Positions 6,228 to 40,628 of a stretch of 44,386 nt of DNA are shown here, piece by piece. Origin of the DNA: a virus (lineage: Duplodnaviria; Heunggongvirae; Uroviricota; Caudoviricetes). Every line of letters starts with the position of its first letter. Positions within the stretch are counted from its first letter, which is position 1. The notes beneath the pieces are model-generated. The model searched no databases. It saw only the letters and a program-made list of their open reading frames with translations, and was not told where the DNA came from. Both the position numbers and the translations under genes were made by a program. The DNA lies in IMG/VR virus record IMGVR_UViG_3300026737_000001. One strand, written 5' to 3'.

Positions 6228-7844
6228 TTATGCCTCCTTTTTACCTGGTTTAAATAAATCTCTGACCTCACTTTTGTGAATAGTTAAACCACAGCTTTTA
6301 TGCTCAGGACAGTAACCTATAACCTGACATTTAGGCTTGATATATTCTCCAAAGATAGGCCATTTGGCCACAACCTGGTTTCTCATCTGCCAGACAATAT
6401 CTCTTATTTCCCACTGAGCTCTGGTACATAACCTTTCTTTTGCTAAATCCATAAGTGAATGAAGGTTAATCATTACATCTATTTCTGTTTCAGTTGAATT
6501 TGGAAGTATAAATCTTGCGTCTTCTTTTGGTATCCCCATTTCAACAAATTGATTATATAAATCATGGAGCTTAGAAATCATTTCATCATATTCATAGTGA
6601 GTAAAACTCTCTTTTTTGATGGTATCTGGTGTTACATAACCAAAACCATCCTCATTTACATAGCGCTGTGAACGCTGAGAATTGTGTACAACAAAACCAT
6701 TAGCTATAAAATTATGATGTGGATTTTTCATTTCTAAATCATAAGTCATTTCTTTTCCTGAATATTCAATGCTTTTAATTTCTGAAAGTCTTATTTGTTT
6801 AACTTTTACTCCATAATGCTGGACTGCGTGGCATGTTCTACAAAGCTCTATTAAATTATCATCTGAATCATTTGAAGGGTTTTTATCTATATGATGAACT
6901 TCGGTAAATTTAGTTTCTTTATCGCAAATTTCACATTTATATTTTCTATCAAAATGCCTCTGGACACGAGTATATCCACCAGTATTTTTGATATTATTTC
7001 CTTTCCATTGATGATTTTTTTCTCCTACAAATTTTTCACCTTTTTTATAATTAGGGTTATTTTCTCCTTTTAATTTTTCAGAGCTTATTTTCATTGGTTT
7101 ATAATTATCTTTTGTTTTTCCTTTATTTGGCGGCTCAACACCTAAAGACCAACTTCCTAACTCTTTTTGTAAATTATATTTTCTAATCCATTTCCTAATA
7201 GTGTGATGAGAACAGTTACATAAAGTGGCAATCTTTTTTTGTGATAAATTTTCTTTGTGATATTTTTTTTCTAACCAGTTTTTATCCATATATAATGGCT
7301 CTCCATTTGTGTAAATTATATCTCCTTCTTTTATGTTTTTTAATCTTTTCCAGCCGTTATCTGTTAAAAATTTATGCTCTTTTGTAGATTTTATACTATA
7401 ACCATCTTTTGTTTTTACAGTATAAACATCTTTTATACCAGATTTTATTATGGATATTGGTTTATTTTTAGTAATTATTTTATTTTCTTCATCAACACAT
7501 CTTACGTTTGTGTGTTTTAATCCATTAATTGTAGTATTATAGAGTTCTTTGAGTGTCTTAGGATGTACACTACCATTTTGATAGTCTGAATATATTCTTG
7601 TATCACCACTTAAACAAAAACTTACCCCCGCTCTTTTTCTTACAAGCTGATGAGAAAACACTCTGCTTCCCTTTTTGATATTAAAATGAAAAGCTGCAAA
7701 CTCAGCCATAGAATTATGTCCTGAATTCAATACATTTCTGACTAGCTCTTTTGTCGGTTCCGAATCATAGCAACGACTGGCAGCCATCGCTATACTCATT
7801 ACTGGATTATTTGATGTTCCTTCCTCTAATAAGGTCACCTTCAT
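6228..7844 (-). CDS. thyX: Flavin-dependent thymidylate synthase interrupted by an intein
   Basis: After intein removal the exteins read SRVFSHQLVRKRAGVSF|SQRSQRYV...EDARFILPN...RLCTRAQWEIR...CPEHKSCG. Confidence 0.93.
   Translation of the reverse strand: MKVTLLEEGTSNNPVMSIAMAASRCYDSEPTKELVRNVLNSGHNSMAEFAAFHFNIKKGSRVFSHQLVRKRAGVSFCLSGDTRIYSDYQNGSVHPKTLKELYNTTINGLKHTNVRCVDEENKIITKNKPISIIKSGIKDVYTVKTKDGYSIKSTKEHKFLTDNGWKRLKNIKEGDIIYTNGEPLYMDKNWLEKKYHKENLSQKKIATLCNCSHHTIRKWIRKYNLQKELGSWSLGVEPPNKGKTKDNYKPMKISSEKLKGENNPNYKKGEKFVGEKNHQWKGNNIKNTGGYTRVQRHFDRKYKCEICDKETKFTEVHHIDKNPSNDSDDNLIELCRTCHAVQHYGVKVKQIRLSEIKSIEYSGKEMTYDLEMKNPHHNFIANGFVVHNSQRSQRYVNEDGFGYVTPDTIKKESFTHYEYDEMISKLHDLYNQFVEMGIPKEDARFILPNSTETEIDVMINLHSLMDLAKERLCTRAQWEIRDIVWQMRNQVVAKWPIFGEYIKPKCQVIGYCPEHKSCGLTIHKSEVRDLFKPGKKEA
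6681..7616 (-). mobile_element. Intein (312 aa) with HTH and HNH endonuclease domains, in thyX
   Basis: Starts CLSGDT, ends HHNFIANGFVVHN, +1 Ser. Internal CEIC...EVHHIDKNPSND...NLIELCRTCH. Confidence 0.92.
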
Positions 7845-8740: not shown

Positions 8741-11569
8741 CTAAATAGCCCTCTTACTTTTGTCACTATAAATCATAAACTTTGAATACTTCATAGGTAT
8801 TTCATCTATAAACCTTGAAGGCTTTTTATCTACAAACTGATAGAACTGAAATCTTCTCTTGCAGTAGGTAAGAAACAATCTTTCTTCAGCTCTTGTCATA
8901 GCTACATAGCATAATCTTCTTTCCTCTTCCTCTCCGTCAGGCTCTTCAAGTGAGAACTTGTGAGGGAATGTCTCTTCTTCCATCCCAACCATGAACACTA
9001 CAGGAAATTCTAAACCTTTGGCTGCATGTACAGTCATTAATTTAACCTTATCTGAGTCCTGGTCGAGCTGGTCTTGGTCACTTATAAGCTTTACATTTTG
9101 CAGAAAGTCTACAAGTGAATCATCGTTGGAATTTTTCTCAACATAGTTATTAACAAAATCAAAAAATGCTTCTACATTCTTCATTCTGTTTTCATAAGTT
9201 TCTTCATCCTGTAGTAATATATCTTCAAAGTGAACGTCTTCGTATATTTTTAGTATTGTCTCCTGCAGGCCTAGGTCTTCTTTCCTAATCTCTATAATCG
9301 GCTTCAGGTATTCATCAAACATCTTTAATACTGCCTCCCCCTTTACTTTACCTATACCCTTTACAGATGAGGGAAACTTTACTACGTCTATCAGAGGAAG
9401 CATTGTATTGTAGCTGTGTTCAAGCATTTTTGCTACAGTTACAGGACCTATGCCGTTACTCTCTAGATTTATTATTCTATTTAAACTAGGAGAGTCTTCA
9501 ACATTTGCAGTCAATCTAATAAATGCTAGAAGGTCTTTTATTTCTTTTCTATCAAAAAACCCTGTACCTTTAACAACTGTGTAAGGTATTCCTGCATTAA
9601 CAAAAGCTGTTTCGAAATTCTGCGACTGATAATTACTTCTATAAAGAAGTGTAATATCTTTATAGTCATAATTATTTGCATCTGTAAGAGTTTTGATTGT
9701 ATTGACTATAAAGTCAGCCTCTTTATATGAGTCAAATGTTTCAGCTATAACTATAGGAAACCCGGGCTTAGCTTTAGTAAAAGCAACTTTCTCTCTTCTT
9801 TTTTTATTGTTTTTAACTACCTCATTTGAGGCTTCTATAATGTTAGATGTGCTTCTGTAATTTCTTTCAAGTTTTATTATATTTACATTTTTATACTCTT
9901 TTTCAAAATCTATTATATTCTGGATATCAGAACCCCTAAATCCATAAATACTATTGCAGGTTACAATTCCATCCGCTATATATTTGTGATATTTATCAAC
10001 ATTTAAACTATAAACAGGTCCATCATAATCATAAATTCTAAGCTTTTTTATTTTTTTCCACTCTGTCTTCTTTCCTTTAATATGGACTGGAACTTTCATA
10101 AGTTCTGGAATAAAATTGCATGCTTTTATTTTTATAATAGATTTTCCGCCACGTCTTTGGTAAACATTTTCAACGTCAAAAAATGGAAATTCTATTTCTC
10201 TGTCGTGGTCTTTGAGGCATTTTTTTGCATTTTTATAAAGTCTTTCATATGATAAGTTTTCATAAACAGAACTTATTACTTCTTTTGTTAAATAACCATT
10301 AGTCGCTCCGTCATTTGTTTCCTGAAAAGTTAATTGTGGAATTCCATACCTGCTAGCAATAATACTTTCCCAGGCAAATGCTTCTTTTTTAGTTTTTACA
10401 ACCTTTAAAATCCATGCTTTATCTGCTTTTTCGATTCTTGACCTAACTCCTAAATGAAATCCCCCATCTGCTTTAAATAATTGACACCATCCTACTCTAA
10501 ATTTGTCATCTTTTTGCATCAAGTAGACTACATTATAGTTAGTAGATTTATTTGTCCACTTAACAAGCCATTTATGGTTATAAGTTGATTTAGATATTTT
10601 GCCATCTTCAGTTTCTATTTCATACATTTTGCCTTTGTAATTTCTCATACCTTTTTTAATTTCGTAACCATAATCATCACTTAATCCAATTACATAAGAA
10701 CCACGCCTGTCATAGCTAGGAACCTTGTCAACACCAGGCTCTAAGTCTTTGATTTTTTTGTAACCTTTAGTAGTTAAGACTTCGGTATTTGGTGGTTGGC
10801 ACTGGTCGGAATCACCTACGGCCATAATATTTTTGTGTTTATCTGCCAGCATCTTAAGTATTATATACTGACTGTGATTTGTGTCTTGATACTCATCACA
10901 CTGAATATACTTAAATTTATTTTGATAGTGTTCTAAAACTTCAGGATATTTTCTAAACAGATAAATTGTTTTTGTTATCAGGTCAGTAAAGTCAAAGGCA
11001 TTATTTTTCTTTAACCTTTTATAATATTCCTTGTATATCTTCTGGATATACCTATCTCTTTCAAAAGGCTCTCTACCAAGCTTTTGCAGATAATTAGCAA
11101 ATGATATTAAGTTTCTTTTAGCTTCTGTTATTTTAAAGAATACTTTTTTATCTTCATAGACTTTATCATCAAGCCCCATTGAGTTTATGATATCGTTTAC
11201 TATTTTTACAGAGTCATCAGTGTCATATATGAGGTAGTTTGGTTTGTAGCCTATCTTATCTAAGTTCTCGCTTAAGATTTTCAAACACATTGAGTGAAAA
11301 GTCCCAATCCACATGCTTGATATATCACAGTCTACAATCTTTTTTACTCTATCTTCCATCTCGCTTGCTGCCTTATTTGTAAAGGTTACAGTTAGGATTT
11401 CAGAAGGAAAAATACCTTCTTTAATAAGTCTTGCTATACGATATGTGATAACTCTTGTTTTTCCACTACCAGCCCCGGCAACAACAAGTGACGGCCCTTT
11501 ATCGTGCAAAACTGCTTCTTTTTGTTTCTTGTTTAAATCAAGTGTTAAATTCAATATTTGCACCTCCAT
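8741..11569 (-). CDS. pcrA: PcrA/UvrD superfamily-1 helicase interrupted by an intein
   Basis: VVAGAGSGKT; TFTNKAA; DEYQDTN; VGDSDQ|SIYGFRG; LERNYRS; LMTVHAAKGLEF; EEERRLCYVAMTRA. Confidence 0.95.
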   Translation of the reverse strand: MEVQILNLTLDLNKKQKEAVLHDKGPSLVVAGAGSGKTRVITYRIARLIKEGIFPSEILTVTFTNKAASEMEDRVKKIVDCDISSMWIGTFHSMCLKILSENLDKIGYKPNYLIYDTDDSVKIVNDIINSMGLDDKVYEDKKVFFKITEAKRNLISFANYLQKLGREPFERDRYIQKIYKEYYKRLKKNNAFDFTDLITKTIYLFRKYPEVLEHYQNKFKYIQCDEYQDTNHSQYIILKMLADKHKNIMAVGDSDQCQPPNTEVLTTKGYKKIKDLEPGVDKVPSYDRRGSYVIGLSDDYGYEIKKGMRNYKGKMYEIETEDGKISKSTYNHKWLVKWTNKSTNYNVVYLMQKDDKFRVGWCQLFKADGGFHLGVRSRIEKADKAWILKVVKTKKEAFAWESIIASRYGIPQLTFQETNDGATNGYLTKEVISSVYENLSYERLYKNAKKCLKDHDREIEFPFFDVENVYQRRGGKSIIKIKACNFIPELMKVPVHIKGKKTEWKKIKKLRIYDYDGPVYSLNVDKYHKYIADGIVTCNSIYGFRGSDIQNIIDFEKEYKNVNIIKLERNYRSTSNIIEASNEVVKNNKKRREKVAFTKAKPGFPIVIAETFDSYKEADFIVNTIKTLTDANNYDYKDITLLYRSNYQSQNFETAFVNAGIPYTVVKGTGFFDRKEIKDLLAFIRLTANVEDSPSLNRIINLESNGIGPVTVAKMLEHSYNTMLPLIDVVKFPSSVKGIGKVKGEAVLKMFDEYLKPIIEIRKEDLGLQETILKIYEDVHFEDILLQDEETYENRMKNVEAFFDFVNNYVEKNSNDDSLVDFLQNVKLISDQDQLDQDSDKVKLMTVHAAKGLEFPVVFMVGMEEETFPHKFSLEEPDGEEEERRLCYVAMTRAEERLFLTYCKRRFQFYQFVDKKPSRFIDEIPMKYSKFMIYSDKSKRAI
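9953..10801 (-). mobile_element. Intein (283 aa) in helicase motif III
   Basis: Starts CQPPNTEV, ends VYSLNVDKYHKYIADGIVTCN, +1 Ser. Removing it restores GDSDQSIYGFRG. Confidence 0.92.
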
Positions 11570-18240: not shown

Positions 18241-19497
18241 CTAACCTTTAATAACTGCAATAGTTTTTAGTTCATCAATCACGGATACTAAATCTTTTTG
18301 ATTTTCCATAACCTGATGAATGTCTTTATATGCCTTCATGTATTCTTCTGCAACATCTTTTTTATTAGTTTTACCAAGTACAACATTCTTTTCTTTTAAA
18401 TCTTCCATAACCTCTTGCACTGAATATTCTTCTTTGGCTGCAGTTCTGGTGTGAGTTCTCCCGGCTCCATGGCTGCAGGACTTGAATGAAGCATCATTCC
18501 CAAGACCCTGAGCAATAAAGGAAGATGAACCCATTGCTCCTGGAATAGGCACCATATCTGTACCTCTGGCCCGCACAGCTCCTTTCCTATGCACCATGTA
18601 GTTAACACCGTTCACATTTTCATAGGCAGCATAATTGTGGTGGACATTTAATCTTCTTGTAATTTTATAATTATCAATAAGACCTCTTTTTTTAAGTAAA
18701 TCAATAGTCTTATTTAGAACTAAATCCATAATTTTATCTCTATTTAACTCAGCAACTTTTAAGGCAAAATTCATGAATTTCATATATTCCTGACCCTCAT
18801 CACTATCGAGTGGTAAAAAGGGCATTGTTACATCATCAGATAAAACATCAACATACCATTTTTTATTTAAACTTTTTGCTAACTTACTAAAATGAGAGTT
18901 TATTTTAGCGCCAACACTTCTGGAGCCGGTGTGAATCATAATTGCAAGATTACCCTCTTTGTTTTCCTGCAGCTCAACGAAGTGGTTGCCACCTCCTAGA
19001 CTTCCAACAATTTCCATAGACTCCATGACAGCTTCCATTAAAAGAGGTTTTTCTTCAATATCTCCACCATAGTTTAAATTATTAATTAGATTTAGAAGCT
19101 CCATGTTATCTTTGTTTTCTTCTTTTTTGCAGTGCTGAAATCCTGTTGGTAAATCTCTCATAATTGACCCAACCAGTTCCTGAGCAACTGTTCCTGAATC
19201 CATGTGTGTTGTTTGCATAAAGCAGGCCTCAATATCTGTCTGTATAAAGGCGACACCGCACCCTATATCGTTCGAGACTGCATCAGGTACTATAACATCC
19301 TTTGTAGCTAAAACCCCGCCAACTGGCATATGGTAGCCCGTAGCGTGTACATCAGGCATCAATGCTATGTGTGATTTAGCGTATGGGAGCTTTGATATTT
19401 CTACTGCTTCTTTAAATGTGTTATCATCTAAATCTTCACTTTCATCAATCCAGACTTTAACAGGCAAGCCTGTATATAAACCATTAAAAGTGTACAT
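18241..19497 (-). CDS. rtcB: RtcB family RNA 2',3'-cyclic phosphate/5'-OH ligase
   Basis: MPDVH; DIGCG; SLGGGNHFVE; IHTGSR; VHHNY; VHRKGA; SCSHGAGR; AYKDI. Confidence 0.96.
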   Translation of the reverse strand: MYTFNGLYTGLPVKVWIDESEDLDDNTFKEAVEISKLPYAKSHIALMPDVHATGYHMPVGGVLATKDVIVPDAVSNDIGCGVAFIQTDIEACFMQTTHMDSGTVAQELVGSIMRDLPTGFQHCKKEENKDNMELLNLINNLNYGGDIEEKPLLMEAVMESMEIVGSLGGGNHFVELQENKEGNLAIMIHTGSRSVGAKINSHFSKLAKSLNKKWYVDVLSDDVTMPFLPLDSDEGQEYMKFMNFALKVAELNRDKIMDLVLNKTIDLLKKRGLIDNYKITRRLNVHHNYAAYENVNGVNYMVHRKGAVRARGTDMVPIPGAMGSSSFIAQGLGNDASFKSCSHGAGRTHTRTAAKEEYSVQEVMEDLKEKNVVLGKTNKKDVAEEYMKAYKDIHQVMENQKDLVSVIDELKTIAVIKG

Positions 19498-35027: not shown

Positions 35028-35948
35028 TTAGAATGCATTACTTTCAATCATCTTATCCAAAACTTTAATACATCTTTTTGGAACTTCTTTGTGTAGAATA
35101 TTAAAGTTTACATCTTTTATTCTATTATCCTCATAGATTTCAAGAATATTTTCTCTTAAAAAATCCTTGATAACTCTCGGGATAAGCTTATGCATTAAAG
35201 TTCTTTCAAGCTTATGTCCTTCATCAACAACCATTTTAGCTATTATCTTTTTAATTCTCGCCTCATTTACATAAAGCTCAACTGCTAAAGGAGTGTCTGT
35301 TTCTTTAGGCTTTGGCTTTTTAGCTTTAGCTTTTTGTCTTTCCAAATACTCGTCATTTAAAACTTTGGCAAATAGAGGCTCATTGTATTGGCTTAACCTG
35401 TTATAATTTTTAATAACATAACCTTCAGGCTTTTTTGAGTTGTACTTAGAAATTTCTAAAAGTTTATCTCTGTCCATCCCAAGATATTCTTCCATTGTTC
35501 CCTCAAATAAGATATTTACAAATTCTAAACCCAGACTTTCAAAAGTCTTTTTGGCGACTTTATAATCAAGTGGCATTCCAGTTTCTTTATCAAGAAGGTC
35601 AAACCCTATAAATGGTGGATGATTATCAAAATCATAATTTACTATGTGTTTTTTCATTGCCTCTCCGACATAAATAATATCTCTGCCAAGAGCATTTACA
35701 TCAAGCTTTTTATTTAAATATTCAATCTGTTTACCCCATCCATCACGAGGTCTGACATCTTTAACTTTTCTAGAACCGTATACAATCCTATCTCCTTCTC
35801 TCCAGAACCTAAAGTTACTGCCGTCAATTTTTTCTTCAATTACAATTTCATCCTCTTTGTAATTTGTAATCTCTTGATTGCTACTACTGCCTAAGATATA
35901 AATTTTGTTGTACTCTCTTAATTCCTCTAACTTATCTTTATCCATCAA
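35028..35948 (-). CDS. ATP-dependent RNA ligase, Rnl2-like
   Basis: Nucleotidyltransferase motifs EKIDGSN, YGSR, VGE, FIGFD, EGYVIK, AKV. The helical C-domain (YVNEARI...I.K) resembles that of Rnl2. Confidence 0.85.
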   Translation of the reverse strand: MMDKDKLEELREYNKIYILGSSSNQEITNYKEDEIVIEEKIDGSNFRFWREGDRIVYGSRKVKDVRPRDGWGKQIEYLNKKLDVNALGRDIIYVGEAMKKHIVNYDFDNHPPFIGFDLLDKETGMPLDYKVAKKTFESLGLEFVNILFEGTMEEYLGMDRDKLLEISKYNSKKPEGYVIKNYNRLSQYNEPLFAKVLNDEYLERQKAKAKKPKPKETDTPLAVELYVNEARIKKIIAKMVVDEGHKLERTLMHKLIPRVIKDFLRENILEIYEDNRIKDVNFNILHKEVPKRCIKVLDKMIESNAF

Positions 35949-36421: not shown

Positions 36422-36453
36422 AAAAAAAAGACAGACCGATTAAGGCCTGCCTT
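36422..36453 (-). terminator. Intrinsic terminator ending the RNA cluster-neuB-DUF2828 transcript
   Basis: AAGGCAGGCC-ttaatc-GGTCTGTCTT-TTTTTT. Confidence 0.85.
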
Positions 36454-36463
36454 AGTAATTTTA

Positions 36464-37969
36464 TTAAACTGTAATTCTATCGTACTGTTCGTCTGTGATT
36501 ACATCGAGCATCAAGTCGTAGGCGGAAACAAACTCACCCTTCATTGTGTGCTCAAAAACAACTGGAGAAGCTCCGCTTACAAGCTGGAATCCTCTTTCGT
36601 CTTTGTCAAACTGAAAAACTTCATTTCTTGCTTCAACATTCCAGAAGACTAAATCCGGCATTTTGTAGCCATAATATTTGAATGATTCCTTTAACTTTTC
36701 AAAAAGTGTTTTAGTTACTTTGTTACGAGAACTAAGTCCATAACTATTATTTGTACACTGGTCAAATTCCATATCAGAAATAATGTATAACTTTTGAGGT
36801 ATTTCATCCTGATGGAGATGATTTTCTATAGCAGTATCTAAAATAAGATTAAATACAGCTTCGATATCGGTATTCATATCCCAGTGAGCTCTTCTCATGT
36901 TCTTAATTTTCTGCACAAAATCACTGCCTTCTACTTTTACTAAATCAGGACTGGCAGAGAAGGTAATAAACCTATCTTTAAAGGGTCCTGAGTTTCTTTC
37001 TGCCATATATAATCCTAATGAAAGGGCAATATGAAGTGGCAACCCATCTGAGCTCATCATAGAGCCTGAAGTATCTACAACGCAAATAGAATTTTCATTT
37101 TTATCATTGATATAATCAGGCAATGCTTTCCACTGCTCATTTAAAACATCTCTTTCACTTTCAGAAACTGAATGGCCCCAACCAACACCGATAACTTTTC
37201 TTACTAAATCATAAGGATATAAAGTTGAAGCATTAATTTTGTCCTCTCCAGACTTAACATTTTCAATATATTCATGGTAGCCTTCAGGGTCATGTCTTTC
37301 AAAAGCATTATTGTAAATCATTTGTGCTCTTGAAGGAACAGATGAGTAGTCAATATCTTCCCAGTCATTATTCGACATTTTTCTTTCGACAACACCTATT
37401 TTCTTTCTTAGCTTAGAAAGTGTTTTTCTATATCCTCTTGCTGTCATCTCAAAATGTTTTCTGGTTTTTTTGGCAAGTCTTTTTGTTTCGTCTGAGCTTG
37501 CATTTTCTGATTTAAGCCATTTTGCTAATAAGCTTGGTTTTTCAGAATTGATATCCTTAAAGAACTGGGCTTTCATAAAATTTGCTGCATAGCCTTCAAG
37601 TCTTGTATCAAATAAGGCATATAAATCGTCCCATCGACCATAATGAGGTATGTGTTCTAAGTTTTTTAGAACTACCTCAGGCTTTACCTGTGTCAGATAT
37701 TTTAAAATAACTCTAAATATTCTTCTTTCTCCTAGCCCACCCCTAACATTTCTGGCATAAAAAAGAGTTTTTACTGCTAGAAGGTCATCTTCTGTTAAAG
37801 CCTTATCAAAAAGCCTTATAATATCTTCTTTATTCCTGTTTCTTAAAGCTCCCACCTGAGCAAAGAAATCGAGTAGGTTATCTTTAGTTGTATGTTTTGC
37901 TGTTGCACCATTTTCTGTTGCTGTGTAATTAACTTTATCTTCCATTGCGTCTAAAAATTTATTTGACAT
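36464..37969 (-). CDS. DUF2828-type TROVE/Ro60-like RNA-binding protein with a C-terminal vWA domain
   Basis: TENGA; LDFF; LFYARNVRGGLGER; YGRWDDL; LAKW; YRK; VPS; INASTLYPYDL; MIDAS motif VVDTSGSM; ISDMEFD; VFWNV. Confidence 0.85.
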   Translation of the reverse strand: MSNKFLDAMEDKVNYTATENGATAKHTTKDNLLDFFAQVGALRNRNKEDIIRLFDKALTEDDLLAVKTLFYARNVRGGLGERRIFRVILKYLTQVKPEVVLKNLEHIPHYGRWDDLYALFDTRLEGYAANFMKAQFFKDINSEKPSLLAKWLKSENASSDETKRLAKKTRKHFEMTARGYRKTLSKLRKKIGVVERKMSNNDWEDIDYSSVPSRAQMIYNNAFERHDPEGYHEYIENVKSGEDKINASTLYPYDLVRKVIGVGWGHSVSESERDVLNEQWKALPDYINDKNENSICVVDTSGSMMSSDGLPLHIALSLGLYMAERNSGPFKDRFITFSASPDLVKVEGSDFVQKIKNMRRAHWDMNTDIEAVFNLILDTAIENHLHQDEIPQKLYIISDMEFDQCTNNSYGLSSRNKVTKTLFEKLKESFKYYGYKMPDLVFWNVEARNEVFQFDKDERGFQLVSGASPVVFEHTMKGEFVSAYDLMLDVITDEQYDRITV

Positions 37970-37997
37970 ATTAATAATCCCCCTTTTGTTTTTATAC

Positions 37998-38052
37998 TAG
38001 GCACATATTTTGTTGGATTTACAGTCCTTGATTTGGTTGCTGATTGTGCCTA
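37998..38052 (-). ncRNA. CAGCAA hairpin H1 carrying a Tyr(GUA) anticodon stem-loop
   Basis: UAGGCACA-AU-CAGCAA...GGA-CUGUAAA-UCC...AAAAUA-UGUGCCUA, with a perfect 8-bp closing stem. Confidence 0.8.
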
Positions 38053-38077
38053 AATTTAATTCCTAAGACTCTACTAC

Positions 38078-38143
38078 AAGACAGTATCCGCATTTCGCGG
38101 GTTTTATGATACCTTCATAAGAATTGGTTGCTGCATCTGTCTT
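38078..38143 (-). ncRNA. CAGCAA hairpin H2
   Basis: AAGACAG-AUG-CAGCAA...UUAUGA/UCAUAA hairpin, CCGC-GAAA-U-GCGG hairpin...AUA-CUGUCUU. Confidence 0.75.
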
Positions 38144-38188
38144 TAATTTGAAAGGAGTGTTGGTTAACTTAATTTAATTGCCGGCTGA

Positions 38189-38319
38189 TGGTGGCAGTAG
38201 CAGGATTTGAACCTACGTCTTTTCTTTTACATAGAATTGTTAGTTGTAGTTTGCTGTAAGGGCCCGCCGGCCTATGCCCATTAACTTTGTTTGCTCTCTA
38301 CCAGTTGAGCTATACTGCC
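38189..38319 (-). ncRNA. tRNA-like RNA A (131 nt) with a CAGCAA insert and a local UUCU-AUGUAAA-AGAA loop
   Basis: Acceptor GGCAGUA/UACUGCC + ACCA; D arm GCUC/GAGC; T arm GUAGG-UUCAAAU-CCUGC. Confidence 0.85.
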
Positions 38320-38327
38320 ATATATAC

Positions 38328-38391
38328 AAGGCACCATTACTATTGGATTCAAATTGGAAGTTTGATTTAGTAAGTTTGCTGTTGGCGCCTT
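38328..38391 (-). ncRNA. CAGCAA hairpin H4 carrying a Gly(UCC) anticodon stem-loop
   Basis: AAGGCGCCA-A-CAGCAA...UUACUA..UCAAA-CUUCCAA-UUUGA..UAGUAA-UGGUGCCUU. Confidence 0.8.
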
Positions 38392-38399
38392 TAAGATTT

Positions 38400-39221
38400 T
38401 TATTTTCTAAGTTTTTCTTTTACTTTTTCTTCAGATTCATAAACTTTAATATTATCACTCCCGAGCCAGTTATCAACTCTGTTAAGATTGTCGATAAGCT
38501 CTTTTAGCTCTTTGTATTCTAGACTTGCACTGTGGTCGCTGCCCCACATATCCTTATCTAGAGTGATATGTCTTTCAATTATCTCAGCTCCTAAAACTTT
38601 AGCTGCTATTGTCGGTTGAATCCCTTTTTCGTGGCCGCTGTAACCTATAATATTTAAAGGATACTTTTCTTTAAGTCTTTCAATTATTCTTAAGTCAAGC
38701 TCATTCTCAGCTGATGGATAACTGCTGTTGCAGTGCATGATACTTAACTTATCTTCATATCCTTCAAAAACATTAACTGCTTTATCAATTTCTTCTTCTG
38801 TACTCATACCAGTGGATAAAACTACAGGGATTCCTGTCTTTCTTACAGCTTCTAAAAGCTTCATATCTGTGATTGAGGCACTAGCAATTTTTATGAACGG
38901 CACATTAAAATCAGTTAGAAATTCAAGAGAGTCAATATCCCATACACTTGCTGTCCATTTAACTCCCAGCTTGTGACAGTAAGCATTCAGTGCTACATAT
39001 TCGCTATAACCAAATTCCATTCTGTATTTATAATCAATATAGTCCATCTCACCCCACGGTGTTTTTTTCTTTTTATGCCACTGGTCTTTGGGCACACACT
39101 TTTTAGGGTTTCTTTTCTGAAATTTAACTACATCTGCTCCAGCTTTATATGCCATATCTATTAACTCATAGGCATACTCTAAATTTCCGTTATGATTAAT
39201 ACCAATCTCTGCTATAAACAA
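38400..39221 (-). CDS. neuB: NeuB-family nonulosonic-acid synthase (no C-terminal SAF/AFP domain)
   Basis: FIAEIGINHNG; ADVVKFQ; KIASA; LSTGMS; MHCNSSYP; GYSGHE; IERHITL; DHSASL. Confidence 0.9.
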   Translation of the reverse strand: MFIAEIGINHNGNLEYAYELIDMAYKAGADVVKFQKRNPKKCVPKDQWHKKKKTPWGEMDYIDYKYRMEFGYSEYVALNAYCHKLGVKWTASVWDIDSLEFLTDFNVPFIKIASASITDMKLLEAVRKTGIPVVLSTGMSTEEEIDKAVNVFEGYEDKLSIMHCNSSYPSAENELDLRIIERLKEKYPLNIIGYSGHEKGIQPTIAAKVLGAEIIERHITLDKDMWGSDHSASLEYKELKELIDNLNRVDNWLGSDNIKVYESEEKVKEKLRK

Positions 39222-39342
39222 ATTTTACACCTCTTTATACAAAATTAACCGGGTTTAAAAGCACCGGCAAGTTCGAAAGAATATATTATAATGAACAAAA
39301 TCATAAAGATAAACTGACACCAAGATATCGCCCTTTAATGAC

Positions 39343-39420
39343 AAGACGGCTCAGGGATAAAAAAGTGTCAGTCTTATTCGTCTTTTATTATATAATAGTT
39401 TGGTTGCTGTGTGCCGTCTT
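39343..39420 (-). ncRNA. CAGCAA hairpin H5, upstream of neuB
   Basis: AAGACGGC-ACA-CAGCAA...GCCGUCUU, perfect 8-bp stem. Confidence 0.75.
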
Positions 39421-39457
39421 TAAAAATTACAAAAAATTAATCTTTAATTCCTAAAGT

Positions 39458-39580
39458 TGGTGGAGAGTGGTGGATTCGAACCACCATGGTCATCGACCGC
39501 AGGCTTTTCACTTTTTTTGCTGTTAATGTTTAATCTAAACATATTTTGGCCGGTACCTTTGCCATTAGGAGAATCTCTCC
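39458..39580 (-). ncRNA. tRNA-like RNA B: Tyr-type body with a 37-nt CAGCAA insert in the anticodon loop
   Basis: GGAGAGA/ACUCUCC + ACCA; variable arm GGUC-GAU-GACC; T arm GGUGG-UUCGAAU-CCACC; the 3' loop side reads U-GAA-AA. Confidence 0.85.
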
Positions 39581-39588
39581 TTAAAAAA

Positions 39589-39706
39589 TGGTCGAAGGGG
39601 CAGGATTCGAACCTGCAACAAGCTCCTCCTCAAGGAAAATTGATTGCTGTTAACGCTTAAAACTAAGCATATATTTTAGCTGCTCTACCAGTTGAGCTAC
39701 CCTTCG
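39589..39706 (-). ncRNA. tRNA-like RNA C (C1-G72, A73) with a CAGCAA insert and a Leu(GAG)-like loop
   Basis: CGAAGGG/CCCUUCG + ACCA; canonical D and T arms; UUCC-UUGAGGA-GGAG. Confidence 0.85.
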
Positions 39707-39718
39707 AAAAATTGTAAT

Positions 39719-39837
39719 TGGTGAGGACGGGAGTTGAACCCGCGAATCCCGGCTTGACATAGAAGAATTGCTGTTGGTGACTAAACTAGTCACACTTTCT
39801 TTTTGCGCCGGAGCCTTTCCATCTTGGCTACCTCACC
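39719..39837 (-). ncRNA. tRNA-like RNA D with a 46-nt CAGCAA insert; Asp(GUC) triplet retained
   Basis: GGUGAGG/CCUCACC + A (CCA not encoded); CCGGC/GCCGG stem spans the insert; the 3' loop side reads U-GUC-AA. Confidence 0.85.
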
Positions 39838-39847
39838 GTAAATTAAC

Positions 39848-40056
39848 CCGTCGCAACAGCTAGCCCACAGAGCTCGGCAGTTGTTTCCATGTATTTCCTA
39901 AGCCTGGCAGTTTGTTTTTAATATTGTAGCCAGGCTGTTTACATGTTGCTGACAGATTAATTTTGAATTAAGCCCTCTGGCAATTTTGTAGAGGAATCTT
40001 AATTCTGTCGCATTTATTTGAAGATAGTTTAAATTGCCAAAAACTATCACTGCGGC
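39848..40056 (-). ncRNA. ~210-nt multi-hairpin structured RNA G of unknown family
   Basis: Several perfect 6-8 bp stems and complementary loops (see findings); lies between two tRNA-type genes. Confidence 0.7.
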
Positions 40057-40062
40057 TAAAGT

Positions 40063-40154
40063 TGGCAGAAGGAGAGGGATTTGAACCCTCGATACCCATT
40101 AAGGTATAACAGATTTCAAATCTGTCTTCATAAACCAGACTCGAACATCCTTCT
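40063..40154 (-). tRNA. tRNA-Ser(UGA)
   Basis: AGAAGGA/UCCUUCU + GCCA; ACAGA-UUUGAAA-UCUGU; long variable arm. Confidence 0.95.
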
Positions 40155-40163
40155 ATATAAAAA

Positions 40164-40278
40164 TGACCGGGAGAGCAGGATTCGAACCTGCGACACGCTC
40201 CTTTAATGGGATGTGATTGCTGTTAATACCTTATACAAGACATATTTTAGCTGCTCTAGCCTGCTGAGCTATCTCCCG
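40164..40278 (-). ncRNA. tRNA-like RNA E, paralog of C, with a CAGCAA insert; ends G-UCA
   Basis: CGGGAGA/UCUCCCG; D and T arms nearly identical to those of C; UCC-CAUUAAA-GGA loop. Confidence 0.85.
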
Positions 40279-40284
40279 AAAAAA

Positions 40285-40369
40285 TGGAGGAAGAGAGGGG
40301 ATTTGAACCCCTGAACCTGTCGGTAACAGTTTAGCAAACTGTCTCCTTAAACCACTCGGACACTCTTCC
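40285..40369 (-). tRNA. tRNA-Ser(GCU)
   Basis: GGAAGAG/CUCUUCC + UCCA; ACAGU-UUGCUAA-ACUGU; variable arm. The discriminator is U rather than the usual G. Confidence 0.92.
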
Positions 40370-40378
40370 TTTAAATTT

Positions 40379-40424
40379 TGGAGCCGGCAGGGCAGGTAAC
40401 TAACCTGTAGTTTCCCGAACCGGC
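40379..40424 (-). ncRNA. 46-nt minihelix-like RNA ending UCCA
   Basis: GCCGG..GGG / CCC..CCGGC + UCCA, with an internal CAGG-UUAGUUA-CCUG hairpin. Confidence 0.55.
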
Positions 40425-40434
40425 ATATATATAA

Positions 40435-40580
40435 TGTCATGGGTGAGGATTTACACCTCACATGAACATTCGCATGTTGCAAAGCTGCTTTTAAATGTAT
40501 AAGCATATGCCCCTCTGGTTATTATGTTTCCCACCGAATGCCTTACCATTATAGCGTCTACTTATTCCGCCACCAATGAC
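40435..40580 (-). ncRNA. Large tRNA-Leu-like RNA F (146 nt) with an expanded anticodon region
   Basis: GUCAUUGG/CCCAUGAC; Leu-type D arm UG-GCG-GAAUAAGUAGA-CGC; variable hairpin AACAU-GCGA-AUGUU; T arm GUGAGG-UGUAAAU-CCUCAC. Confidence 0.75.
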
Positions 40581-40599
40581 TTGTTTATCTGTTAAGTTT

Positions 40600-40628
40600 A
40601 TTATATCATACTTCACTACATTTTTCAA
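40600..40628 (-). promoter_or_regulatory. Strong sigmaA-type promoter driving the RNA cluster
   Basis: TTGAAA-N17-TATAAT with an extended -10 TG and an AT-rich upstream region, about 20 nt before RNA F. Confidence 0.85.

What the first reader, a model, noticed from the sequence alone, without database searches (positions are those of the whole stretch)
37998..38391. Free-standing CAGCAA hairpins display authentic anticodon stem-loops (Tyr-GUA and Gly-UCC): possible decoys for anticodon nucleases
Seen: H1 encloses GGA-CUGUAAA-UCC, the canonical bacterial tRNA-Tyr anticodon loop and inner stem. H4 encloses UCAAA-CUUCCAA-UUUGA, a 5-bp stem with the canonical tRNA-Gly(UCC) loop. Neither has acceptor, D or T arms. 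H2 instead carries a GAAA-capped hairpin and a 5-nt-loop hairpin. Established: host abortive-infection anticodon nucleases (PrrC, RloC, VapC, colicin E5-type, PARIS AriB) recognise anticodon loops, and phages counter them with tRNAs and RNA repair. Inference: these are anticodon-loop decoys, or modules that present cleaved loops to the Ro-like protein or the ligases. They complement the tRNA bodies whose anticodon arms are disrupted.
Basis: partly seen in the sequence, partly recalled or inferred. Interest (0 to 1): 0.8.

Follow-up and report, generated by a model that had tools for sequence, protein, structure and literature searches.

The report
Phage RNAs displaying tRNA anticodon loops
Two of the three small hairpin RNAs just upstream of this phage's Ro60-like gene carry exact tRNA anticodon loops, as do about a fifth of several hundred related RNAs in other phages, which points to an undescribed RNA-protein particle that imitates tRNA anticodon arms, perhaps to bait host enzymes that cut tRNAs.

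Summary
H1, H2 and H4 are members of a conserved small-RNA family. Each has a 7-9 bp closing stem, then two or three bases and CAGCAA, then a variable payload. The family lies beside, and on the same strand as, a DUF2828 gene whose predicted fold is Ro60-like.

Earlier AI follow-ups in this scan noted the same family on other DNA. I reached it independently. I found it neither in Rfam nor in the papers searched.

New here: the payloads of H4 (Gly-UCC) and H1 (Tyr-GUA) are anticodon-arm mimics, and this is a family property. Exact canonical anticodon loops on stems of 4 bp or more occur in 24 of 133 modules (0.6 expected) and 15 of 86 (0.4 expected). They include isoacceptor-specific features such as the proline-type loop. 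The stems covary and are AU-rich, unlike those of phage tRNAs. Anticodons are skewed towards Lys-UUU and Asn-GUU.

The decoy function is untested. It fits the RtcB, RNA-ligase and phosphatase neighbours and a report that a Felix-type phage's Ro60-like protein counters a host defence. The idea that the hairpins complement tRNA bodies with broken anticodon arms is not supported. tRNA-like A carries its own Tyr-type anticodon arm.

The parts
38327..38391 (-). H4: handle RNA with a Gly(UCC)-type anticodon-arm payload. Closing stem 38391-38383 / 38336-38328, CAGCAA 38381-38376, anticodon-arm mimic 38365-38349 (loop 38360-38354), trailing G 38327.
   Evidence: the MFE fold shows the closing stem, an inner 6-bp helix and the 5-bp/7-nt arm; model R1 scores 51.6 bits, but this sequence was in the training set; the loop equals the commonest phage tRNA-Gly(UCC) loop.
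37997..38053 (-). H1: handle RNA with a Tyr(GUA)-type loop. Closing stem 38053-38045 / 38005-37997, CAGCAA 38042-38037, GGA-CUGUAAA-UCC at 38027-38015. It ends 28 nt before the DUF2828 start codon.
   Evidence: 45.8 bits; in the training set. The same loop sits on 4-6 bp stems in modules of L010 and L066. The inner stem here has only 3 bp.
38078..38143 (-). H2: handle RNA of the same family without an anticodon-type payload. Closing stem 38143-38137 / 38084-38078, CAGCAA 38133-38128, two hairpins with 5-nt loops.
   Evidence: fold; 25.7 bits, E = 8e-4, not in the training set.
38189..38319 (-). tRNA-like A: acceptor, D and T arms and an encoded CCA, with a GC hairpin plus CUUACAGCAA handle inserted after the D arm. 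This is followed by its own anticodon arm, UUCU-AUGUAAA-AGAA (38236-38222, Tyr GUA).
   Evidence: Rfam tRNA, 43.6 bits, with a 71-nt insertion; the R1 local hit at 38261-38212 aligns the arm.
36464..37969 (-). DUF2828 + DUF7788 protein (501 aa): a Ro60-like ring plus a vWA domain with an intact DxSxS motif. It is the presumed partner of the handle RNAs.
   Evidence: Pfam, E = 4e-41 and 7e-48; pLDDT 82, and the 13 best PDB matches are all Ro60/TROVE (E 2e-6 to 3e-3, TM 0.38-0.57; 0.45 or more for 12 of the 13); invariant D299, S301, S303.
39342..39421 (-). H5: a further free-standing handle RNA upstream of neuB, with a possible weak Val(GAC)-like arm at 39375-39361.
   Evidence: 22.6 bits, E = 0.004.
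36428..40628 (-). Presumed transcription unit: promoter-like site (40628-40600), tRNA and handle-RNA cluster, neuB, H4, tRNA-like A, H2, H1, DUF2828, terminator-like hairpin (36453-36428).
   Evidence: promoter 11 of 12 with an extended TG; 10-bp terminator stem followed by a T run. Consensus matches only.

Best explanation
H1, H2 and H4 are small RNAs of a conserved family that travels with a phage Ro60-like protein (DUF2828 plus a vWA domain), much as Y RNAs travel with Ro60.

The constant part is the 'handle'. It is a closing stem of consensus AGRCNC, two or three bases, CAGCAA, and a trailing G after the 3' strand. It is most likely the docking site for the protein (inferred).

The variable part is a payload made of tRNA pieces. 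In H4 and H1, and in roughly one fifth of family members, the payload is an anticodon-arm mimic. It has a stem of about 5 bp with free sequence, capped by the exact 7-nt anticodon loop of a particular tRNA. Related modules differ mainly in the anticodon triplet.

I think the particle displays these arms to factors that read anticodon loops during the conflict over tRNAs. The most likely role is bait: a competitive substrate or a sensor for host anticodon nucleases. The phage's RtcB, RNA ligase and phosphatase would be on hand to reseal cut loops.

Shown: family membership, association with DUF2828, the Ro60-like fold, and selection on the loop and on stem pairing.
Inferred: protein binding to the handle, and the bait function.

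My odds: family membership 0.9; the anticodon arm is a selected functional element 0.85; the handle docks DUF2828 0.7; bait for anticodon nucleases specifically about 0.3.
For: (1) Family and handle. Stem plus CAGCAA modules lie next to DUF2828 genes in Bacillus phage Tsamsa, gut-phage scaffolds and 80 IMG/VR loci. The consensus is fixed in register.

(2) Association. A 16-mer of the handle was scanned through IMG/VR without reference to the protein. Of its matches, 57 of 123 have a closing stem of 7 bp or more. Of those, 29 have a DUF2828 gene in the fetched locus, all on the same strand and 70-2300 nt away. Only 1 of 66 stemless matches does. All 117 hits of model R1 in 89 loci are on the DUF2828 strand.

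(3) Fold. The 13 best PDB matches are all Ro60/TROVE.

(4) Anticodon arms.
- Loops of the YU-NNN-R type on 5-bp stems occur in 30 of 133 modules, against 3.8 +/- 1.9 in dinucleotide shuffles.
- Exact canonical loops occur in 24 of 133 (0.64 expected) and, in an independent motif-anchored set, in 15 of 86 (0.36 expected).
- Density is 4.8 per kb in payloads against 0.155 per kb elsewhere in the loci.
- Loops match those of phage tRNAs, including the proline type with U32 and G37.

(5) Selection on structure rather than descent. Both sides change in 11 of 12 pairs, and the covariation score is 0.73 against 0.20 shuffled. Stem GC is 24% against 59% in tRNAs. The same stem (AUAGA/UCUAU) carries Lys, Asn, Ser and Thr triplets in different loci.

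(6) Conflict context. RtcB, an RNA ligase, HAD_SAK_2 and PhoH are in the window. RtcB, a ligase and a CCA-adding-type enzyme lie beside the homologue in L008. Lys+Asn+Thr(UGU) make up 17 of 36 module arms against 63 of 518 tRNAs, and these are the AriB target set (PMC12409363). Bas63 gp130, Ro60-like and sited just upstream of the tRNA genes, counters the Ppl defence (PMC11482910). The DUF2828 homologue holds the same position in Felixounavirus VpaE1.
Against: - There are no expression, processing or binding data.
- Only about 20% of family members carry an anticodon arm. H2 and all four Felixounavirus modules do not. The arm therefore cannot be the family's general function.
- H1's arm has only 3 bp and the MFE fold does not predict it.
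- Bas63 gp130 alone, moved into T7 without its RNAs, was enough to counter Ppl (PMC11482910).
- AriB needs contacts outside the anticodon arm (PMC12409363), so a bare arm may be a poor bait for that enzyme.
- The AriB site UAAUC is no commoner in modules than in phage tRNAs (8 of 22 against 44 of 133).
- I noticed the match between the anticodon skew and the AriB targets after seeing the data. The modules are also not phylogenetically independent, and AU-rich triplets may be favoured by composition alone.
- The modules used for the covariation count were chosen because they pair.
Confidence: 0.45

Rival explanations
1. Adaptor rather than bait. The anticodon arm recruits a tRNA-binding helper (a repair ligase, a modification enzyme, an exonuclease or a synthetase domain) to the Ro-like particle. 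[quoted passage not shown]
For: The Ro60-like fold. Payloads are tRNA parts of several kinds: anticodon arm, T arm and whole tRNA bodies. Repair enzymes are encoded nearby. There is precedent in Chen et al. 2014 (PMC4201824).
Against: The arms are diversified by anticodon, with a strong skew to Lys and Asn. That is easier to explain by specific enemies than by one general helper. No partner has been identified.
Confidence: 0.2
2. Relics. The modules descend from tRNA genes that acquired the handle. The anticodon arm is a decaying remnant with no function of its own.
For: Some family members still hold a T arm or a whole tRNA body. Only about a fifth keep an anticodon arm.
Against: The loops are letter-perfect while the stems have drifted to 24% GC and still pair, with compensatory changes. 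Identical stems carry different triplets. Enrichment over the rest of the loci is 31-fold. Decay would destroy the loop first.
Confidence: 0.08
3. Cis-regulatory leader. H1, and perhaps H2, are binding sites in the 5' leader of the DUF2828 mRNA through which the protein controls its own synthesis. On this view the anticodon-like loop is incidental.
For: H1 ends 28 nt before the start codon. A module sits 64-135 nt upstream of the start in L008, L009, L010, L011, L013, L016 and L017.
Against: Most modules lie up to 2.3 kb away, on either side of the gene, and are interleaved with tRNAs. This view does not explain the canonical loops. It could hold in addition to the main explanation.
Confidence: 0.07
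4. Minimal 'armless' tRNAs that are charged and used in translation.
For: The layout has a stem of about 7 bp followed by one base (G), an anticodon arm with flanking linkers of about 10 nt, and a total length of 55-65 nt. This recalls armless mitochondrial tRNAs (my own knowledge).
Against: There is no CCA, D arm or T arm. The invariant CAGCAA is shared by all isoacceptor types and by H2-like members with no anticodon. Canonical tRNAs of the same identity often lie in the same locus. Bacterial synthetases, EF-Tu and ribosomes are not known to accept such RNAs.
Confidence: 0.02

Closest known systems
Ro60 (Rsr) with Y RNAs, especially the tRNA-mimicking YrlA of bacteria and mycobacteriophages (Rfam RF02553; Chen et al. 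2014, PMC4201824)
   Same: A ring-plus-vWA protein with a Ro60 fold is encoded beside several small RNAs on the same strand. Each RNA has a terminal stem and a variable module that imitates tRNA. The genes are linked to RtcB and RNA repair.
   Different: The protein belongs to a different sequence family (DUF2828/DUF7788; no Pfam TROVE hit). The handle sequence is unrelated to the Ro-binding helix, and no RF02553 hit reaches threshold (24.7 bits against 69, and that hit spans two neighbouring tRNA-like genes). The mimicry here includes bare anticodon arms with diversified anticodons. YrlA lacks this: its anticodon-stem position leads into the Ro-binding stem.
Class I RNAs of dictyostelid social amoebae (Rfam RF01414; Kjellin et al. 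2021, PMC7919456)
   Same: The RNAs are about 60 nt, with a 6-bp stem joining the 5' and 3' ends. The motif CUUACAGCAA follows the 5' strand directly, the interior is variable, and the genes occur in clusters. Phage modules align to the Rfam model end to end.
   Different: Scores are below the family threshold (14-24 bits against 41.5). Class I RNAs have their own promoters in a eukaryote, and they are reported to bind the RRM protein Rnp1A. The paper states they are absent outside Dictyostelia. No anticodon-type payload is described. I could not test whether dictyostelids have a DUF2828 protein.
Phage countermeasures to anticodon nucleases: nuclease-resistant phage tRNAs (T5 against PARIS AriB, PMC12409363) and tRNA repair by polynucleotide kinase and ligases (phage T4; my own knowledge)
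   Same: The battlefield is the same (the anticodon loops of Lys, Asn and Thr tRNAs), and the RNAs sit among phage tRNA genes and RNA ligases.
   Different: Those systems replace or mend whole functional tRNAs. The modules here cannot decode, keep the ordinary host-like loop, and carry a protein handle.

Membership tests
CAGCAA-handle RNAs next to DUF2828 (no Rfam family; noted before only in this scan's AI reports) | Closing stem of 6 bp or more whose 5' strand ends 1-3 nt before CAGCAA, with consensus AGRCNC and a G after the 3' strand | tested here: met
   H4, H1 and H2 have stems of 9, 9 and 7 bp with the correct register and the trailing G. H2, which was not in the training set, scores 25.7 bits, E = 8e-4, with model R1.
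CAGCAA-handle RNAs next to DUF2828 (no Rfam family; noted before only in this scan's AI reports) | Encoded near and on the same strand as a DUF2828 gene | tested here: met
   The three RNAs lie 28-420 nt upstream of the gene at 36464-37969 on the minus strand. The general association is shown.
CAGCAA-handle RNAs next to DUF2828 (no Rfam family; noted before only in this scan's AI reports) | The RNA is made as a discrete species and binds the protein | not testable with these tools
The complex tool takes proteins only.
tRNA (RF00005) | Cloverleaf with acceptor, D and T arms | tested here: not met
   Neither ARAGORN nor Rfam hits H1, H2 or H4.
tRNA (RF00005) | Anticodon arm: 5-bp stem and 7-nt loop with U33 and a purine at position 37 | tested here: met
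   H4 meets it in full. H1 has the loop but only a 3-bp stem. Both loops equal the commonest phage tRNA loops.
Y RNA / YrlA (RF02553) | Match to the covariance model at the gathering score (69 bits) | tested here: not met
   The only hit scores 24.7 bits and spans the end of one tRNA-like gene and the start of the next, not H1, H2 or H4.
Y RNA / YrlA (RF02553) | The partner protein is a Ro60/TROVE ring with a vWA domain | tested here: met
   Met by fold only: the 13 best Foldseek matches are all Ro60. Pfam assigns DUF2828 and DUF7788, not TROVE. A profile search of PDB sequences finds nothing.
Dictyostelium Class I RNA (RF01414) | Terminal 6-bp stem plus an 11-nt motif (CCUUACAGCAA) next to the 5' strand, length 42-65 nt | tested here: inconclusive
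   The architecture and the last 6-10 letters of the motif are shared. Full-length alignments score 23.6-24.3 bits in L003 and L004, and a partial one scores 14.4 bits in the window, all below the 41.5-bit threshold.
Dictyostelium Class I RNA (RF01414) | Occurs in dictyostelid genomes with an upstream DUSE promoter element | tested here: not met
   This is phage DNA with bacterial-type signals.

The most novel reading that the evidence does not exclude
Phages carry an interchangeable panel of anticodon-arm baits mounted on a common handle and held by a Ro60-like protein. The particle would neutralise or report anticodon nucleases of the PrrC, RloC or AriB kind, and changing three loop letters would retarget it. 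The same handle-protein pairing may also explain the orphan Class I RNAs of social amoebae.
Probability: 0.25. Interest if true: 0.9.

Novelty: new variant of a known kind. Interest (0 to 1): 0.8.

Why it matters
tRNA cleavage is now recognised as a major bacterial defence. The known phage answers are spare tRNAs and repair enzymes.

A protein-held RNA that imitates only the anticodon arm, with the anticodon as the variable element, would be a third answer. It would be the first case in which an RNA mimic serves this purpose.

It also gives the widespread DUF2828 protein a concrete, testable RNA partner. That protein is present in more than 700 sequenced phages, including Listeria, Staphylococcus, Bacillus, Mycobacterium and Felix-type phages.

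The work also supplies a lead on what the unexplained Class I RNAs of Dictyostelium might bind. All of this can be tested in laboratory phage-host pairs.

Tried and rejected
- blastn of the RNA cluster against the sequenced phages: no match. The relatives are too diverged for DNA search.
- Profile search of PDB sequences with the DUF2828 alignment: nothing. Only the fold search showed Ro60.
- The closest relative (L007, protein 98% identical) has an identical 430-nt RNA region, so it gives no covariation.
- Whole genome and read mapping: not available for this window.
- Complementarity between module anticodons and the tRNAs of the same locus: none.
- Enrichment of the AriB site UAAUC in modules: none.
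- A second inner helix under the anticodon arm (UGG/CCA type; in H4 a 6-bp helix): only 63% paired in the unfitted alignment. It is present in a subset and I do not claim it as a family feature.
- Protein atlas look-up, to see whether eukaryotes such as Dictyostelium carry the protein: uninformative.
- Literature: the five papers that mention DUF2828 are irrelevant, and searching the motif as text finds nothing relevant.
- Felixounavirus VpaE1: it has four handle RNAs but no anticodon-type payload.
- I considered and rejected these readings: protein-dependent tRNA introns, permuted tRNA genes, promoters, and chance hairpins.

Full report
**What is there**

The window is phage-like. Almost all ORFs are on the minus strand, and they include RecA, a sliding clamp, primase, an SNF2 helicase and SSB.

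The finding lies in the non-coding stretch between neuB (38400-39221) and a 501-aa gene (36464-37969), both on the minus strand. Read on that strand, the stretch holds H4, a tRNA-like gene (A), H2 and H1.

- H4 has a 9-bp closing stem, then A and CAGCAA. Inside is UCAAA-CUUCCAA-UUUGA.
- H1 has a 9-bp closing stem, then AU and CAGCAA. Inside is GGA-CUGUAAA-UCC.
- H2 has a 7-bp closing stem, then AUG and CAGCAA, and two hairpins with 5-nt loops.

The MFE folds reproduce the closing stems and the H4 arm. They do not reproduce the 3-bp H1 arm. Neither ARAGORN nor Rfam calls a tRNA in these three elements. The description is therefore correct.

CAGCAA occurs 47 times in the window against about 23 expected. 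Ten of these copies lie on the minus strand within the 2.2-kb RNA cluster.

**The neighbouring protein**

The 501-aa gene is DUF2828 plus DUF7788. With a 39-sequence alignment it folds at pLDDT 82. The 13 best PDB matches are all Ro60/TROVE proteins over their full length, including a Thermus phage Ro60 (E 2e-6 to 3e-3; TM 0.38-0.57, 0.45 or more for 12 of the 13). The vWA metal-site motif (D299, S301, S303) is invariant. Sequence profiles do not reach Ro60.

Homologues occur in 711 sequenced phages of many hosts. They are often annotated as RNA-binding or Ro-like protein and often sit in tRNA clusters.

A strong promoter-like site (40628-40600) and a terminator-like hairpin (36453-36428) bracket the RNA cluster, neuB and this gene.

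**The hairpins belong to a family**

The same design recurs beside DUF2828 genes in these places:
- Bacillus phage Tsamsa;
- gut-phage scaffolds;
- relatives with 58-59% protein identity;
- 80 IMG/VR loci.

The design is a closing stem, two or three bases, CAGCAA, a payload, the 3' strand and a G. Aligned on CAGCAA, the upstream consensus is A-G-R-C-N-C-W-W-A in a fixed register.

On the gene's strand, 237 of 487 CAGCAA copies have a closing stem of 7 bp or more. On the opposite strand only 37 of 319 do.

I also ran a test that does not start from the protein. I scanned IMG/VR for a 16-mer of the handle. Of 123 matches, 57 have the closing stem. Of those 57, 29 have a DUF2828 gene in the fetched piece, always on the same strand and 70-2300 nt away. 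Only 1 of the 66 stemless (chance) matches does.

A covariance model built from 40 modules finds 117 hits at E of 0.001 or less in 89 loci, all on the DUF2828 strand. In the window it finds H4, H1 and H2 (H2 was not in the training set; E = 8e-4). It also finds a further module upstream of neuB and a local match inside tRNA-like A.

Rfam 15 has no family for these RNAs. The only related signal is a sub-threshold match to the Class I RNA of Dictyostelium. Its consensus (a 6-bp terminal stem and then CUUACAGCAA) aligns end to end with phage modules at 23.6-24.3 bits against a threshold of 41.5. The published description of Class I RNAs matches the architecture, and it states that they are unique to Dictyostelia (PMC7919456).

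After reaching these points I looked up the scan's earlier notes. Several AI follow-ups on other genomes describe the same handle family, its DUF2828 link and the Class I resemblance. They agree with my results but are not independent evidence.

**The anticodon-arm payload is a conserved property**

*First set.* I took 133 unique modules with payloads of 15-70 nt from the DUF2828-anchored loci.
- MFE folds give 131 hairpins. Of these, 48 have 7-nt loops, and 35 of the 48 have U at position 2 and a purine at position 6. These fall in 33 modules, against 1.6 +/- 1.4 modules in mononucleotide shuffles.
- The loop consensus is C-U-N-N-N-A-A and the commonest stem length is 5 bp.
- Without folding, a Y-U-NNN-R-N loop on a 5-bp stem occurs in 30 of 133 modules, against 3.8 +/- 1.9 in dinucleotide shuffles.

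*Comparison with real tRNAs.* I took the anticodon arms of the 680 canonical tRNAs that ARAGORN finds in all the loci fetched (518 unique) and asked for exact recurrent tRNA loops.
- These occur on stems of 4 bp or more in 24 of 133 modules (0.64 +/- 0.81 expected).
- In the independent motif-anchored set they occur in 15 of 86 modules (0.36 +/- 0.62 expected).
- Their density in payloads is 4.8 per kb, against 0.155 per kb in the rest of the loci outside tRNAs and modules.

*Isoacceptor features are copied.* Lys, Asn, Tyr, Gly, Ser, Thr, Cys and Ile modules carry the C-U...A-A loops of those tRNAs. Pro modules carry the U-U-U-G-G-G-N loop with G at position 37. H1's loop recurs on 4-6 bp stems in modules of L010 and L066. 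H4's loop recurs in L035.

*The arms are under selection and are not recent tRNA copies.*
- In an unfitted MAFFT alignment, 11 of 12 pairs of the two helices show changes on both sides. The covariation score is 0.73, against 0.20 shuffled and 0.15 or less when partners are slid. One caveat applies: the modules were chosen because they pair.
- Arm stems are 24% GC, against 59% in the tRNAs.
- One stem (AUAGA/UCUAU) carries Lys, Asn, two Ser and Thr triplets in different phages. This is what diversification at the triplet would look like.

**Limits**

Among 296 modules:
- about 18% hold a canonical anticodon arm;
- about 21% hold a T arm;
- a few hold both, which makes them tRNA-like RNAs with the handle in place of the D arm;
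- two thirds hold neither.

H2 and the four modules of Felixounavirus VpaE1 belong to the last group. The arm is therefore one kind of payload and not the family's definition.

**The tRNA bodies**

In tRNA-like A the handle is inserted after the D arm. Here the handle is a GC hairpin followed by CUUACAGCAA. It is followed by a 4-bp, 7-nt arm with a Tyr-type loop, a 5-nt variable region, the T arm and CCA.

By eye, the tRNA-like genes at 39719-39837 and 39592-39706 also end their inserts with loops of Asp and Leu type. I did not test these.

Module anticodons are shared with a canonical tRNA of the same locus in 16 of 35 cases, against 12 +/- 2.5 on permutation. This shows neither complementarity nor linkage.

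**How it probably works**

By analogy with Ro60 and Y RNA, the handle is the docking site and the payload is what the particle shows to other factors. In that system a terminal stem docks on the ring and a variable module engages other proteins, and in YrlA the module imitates tRNA (PMC4201824). This docking step is inferred, not shown.

The context points to the conflict over tRNA.
- The window encodes RtcB (18241-19497), an ATP-dependent RNA ligase (35028-35948), a HAD phosphatase of the RNA-repair type and PhoH.
- L008 has a ligase, RtcB and a CCA-adding-type enzyme right after the gene.
- The 36 unique arms of short modules are skewed. There are 9 Lys-UUU, 6 Asn-GUU and 2 Thr-UGU, together 17 of 36 against 63 of 518 among the tRNAs.
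- tRNA-Lys(UUU) is the classical target of anticodon nucleases. Lys, Thr(UGU) and Asn are exactly the targets of the PARIS nuclease AriB (PMC12409363). I noticed this match after seeing the data, and the modules are not independent, so I treat it as a lead.
- In phage Bas63 a Ro60-like protein encoded just upstream of the tRNA genes is needed against the Ppl defence, and it protects T7 when transplanted (PMC11482910). The DUF2828 homologue holds that position in another Felixounavirus. I did not verify that the two are orthologous.

I therefore favour bait: a competitive substrate or sensor for anticodon-directed nucleases that is possibly resealed by the phage ligases.

Several points count against this reading.
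- gp130 worked without its RNAs.
- AriB needs contacts outside the arm.
- The AriB site is not enriched in modules.
- Most family members lack an arm.

An adaptor role, recruiting tRNA enzymes to the particle, is the main rival.

**Verdict**

- The RNA family appears undescribed in Rfam and in the literature I could search, although this scan's own notes have met it before.
- The anticodon-arm payload, with its diversified triplets, is the new element.
- The function remains to be tested at the bench.

Noticed in passing
window 38222-38236 (-), inside tRNA-like A (38189-38319): tRNA-like A is not missing its anticodon arm. After the inserted hairpin and CUUACAGCAA handle comes UUCU-AUGUAAA-AGAA (Tyr GUA, with an unusual A at position 32), then a 5-nt variable region, the T arm and CCA.
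   Followed up: partly
window 39361-39375 (-), inside module H5 (39342-39421): Possible third anticodon-type arm, AAGA-CUGACAC-UUUU (Val GAC-like). It has 4 bp including a G-U pair and competes with a longer A/U helix in the MFE fold.
   Followed up: no
window 37997-38053; L008, L009, L010, L011, L013, L016, L017 just upstream of their DUF2828 genes: A handle RNA recurrently sits 64-135 nt upstream of the DUF2828 start codon. In the window H1 ends 28 nt before it. This arrangement would allow the protein to regulate its own mRNA.
   Followed up: no
L003 1855-1919; L004 2070-2129 and 2157-2239; window 38212-38262 (-): Phage handle RNAs align end to end with Rfam's Dictyostelium Class I RNA model (23.6-24.3 bits; threshold 41.5). 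The published view is that Class I RNAs exist only in Dictyostelia.
   Followed up: partly
L093 (IMG/VR giant-virus bin GVMAG-M-3300017963-53), minus strand near 157-714: Three handle RNAs with closing stems lie in a giant-virus metagenome bin. No DUF2828 homologue is present in the fetched 11 kb.
   Followed up: no
L209 6223, 6390, 6787, 6875 (Escherichia phage VpaE1): A cultivable Felix-type coliphage has four handle RNAs (stem GAAGACC/GGUCUGG) just downstream of its DUF2828 gene, among the tRNA genes. None has an anticodon-type payload. It is a convenient model for binding tests.
   Followed up: partly
window 6228-7844 (-) and 8741-11569 (-): The ThyX-type thymidylate synthase and the UvrD-type helicase both carry intein-splicing domain hits. 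The ThyX gene also has an HNH hit.
   Followed up: no
L011 1518-1591, L015 3198-3275, L025 693-767 and 966-1040, L069 8461-8531: Several related phages encode tRNAs with a CUA anticodon (called tRNA-Pyl by ARAGORN). These are possible amber suppressors.
   Followed up: no
L007 917-1346 against window 37970-38399: A metagenome contig whose DUF2828 protein is 98% identical has a letter-identical 430-nt RNA region.
   Followed up: yes
window 39682-39745 (-): The weak Rfam YrlA hit (24.7 bits) spans the T arm and acceptor end of one tRNA-like gene and the acceptor and D arm of the next. It reflects the tandem arrangement and is not a Y RNA.
   Followed up: partly
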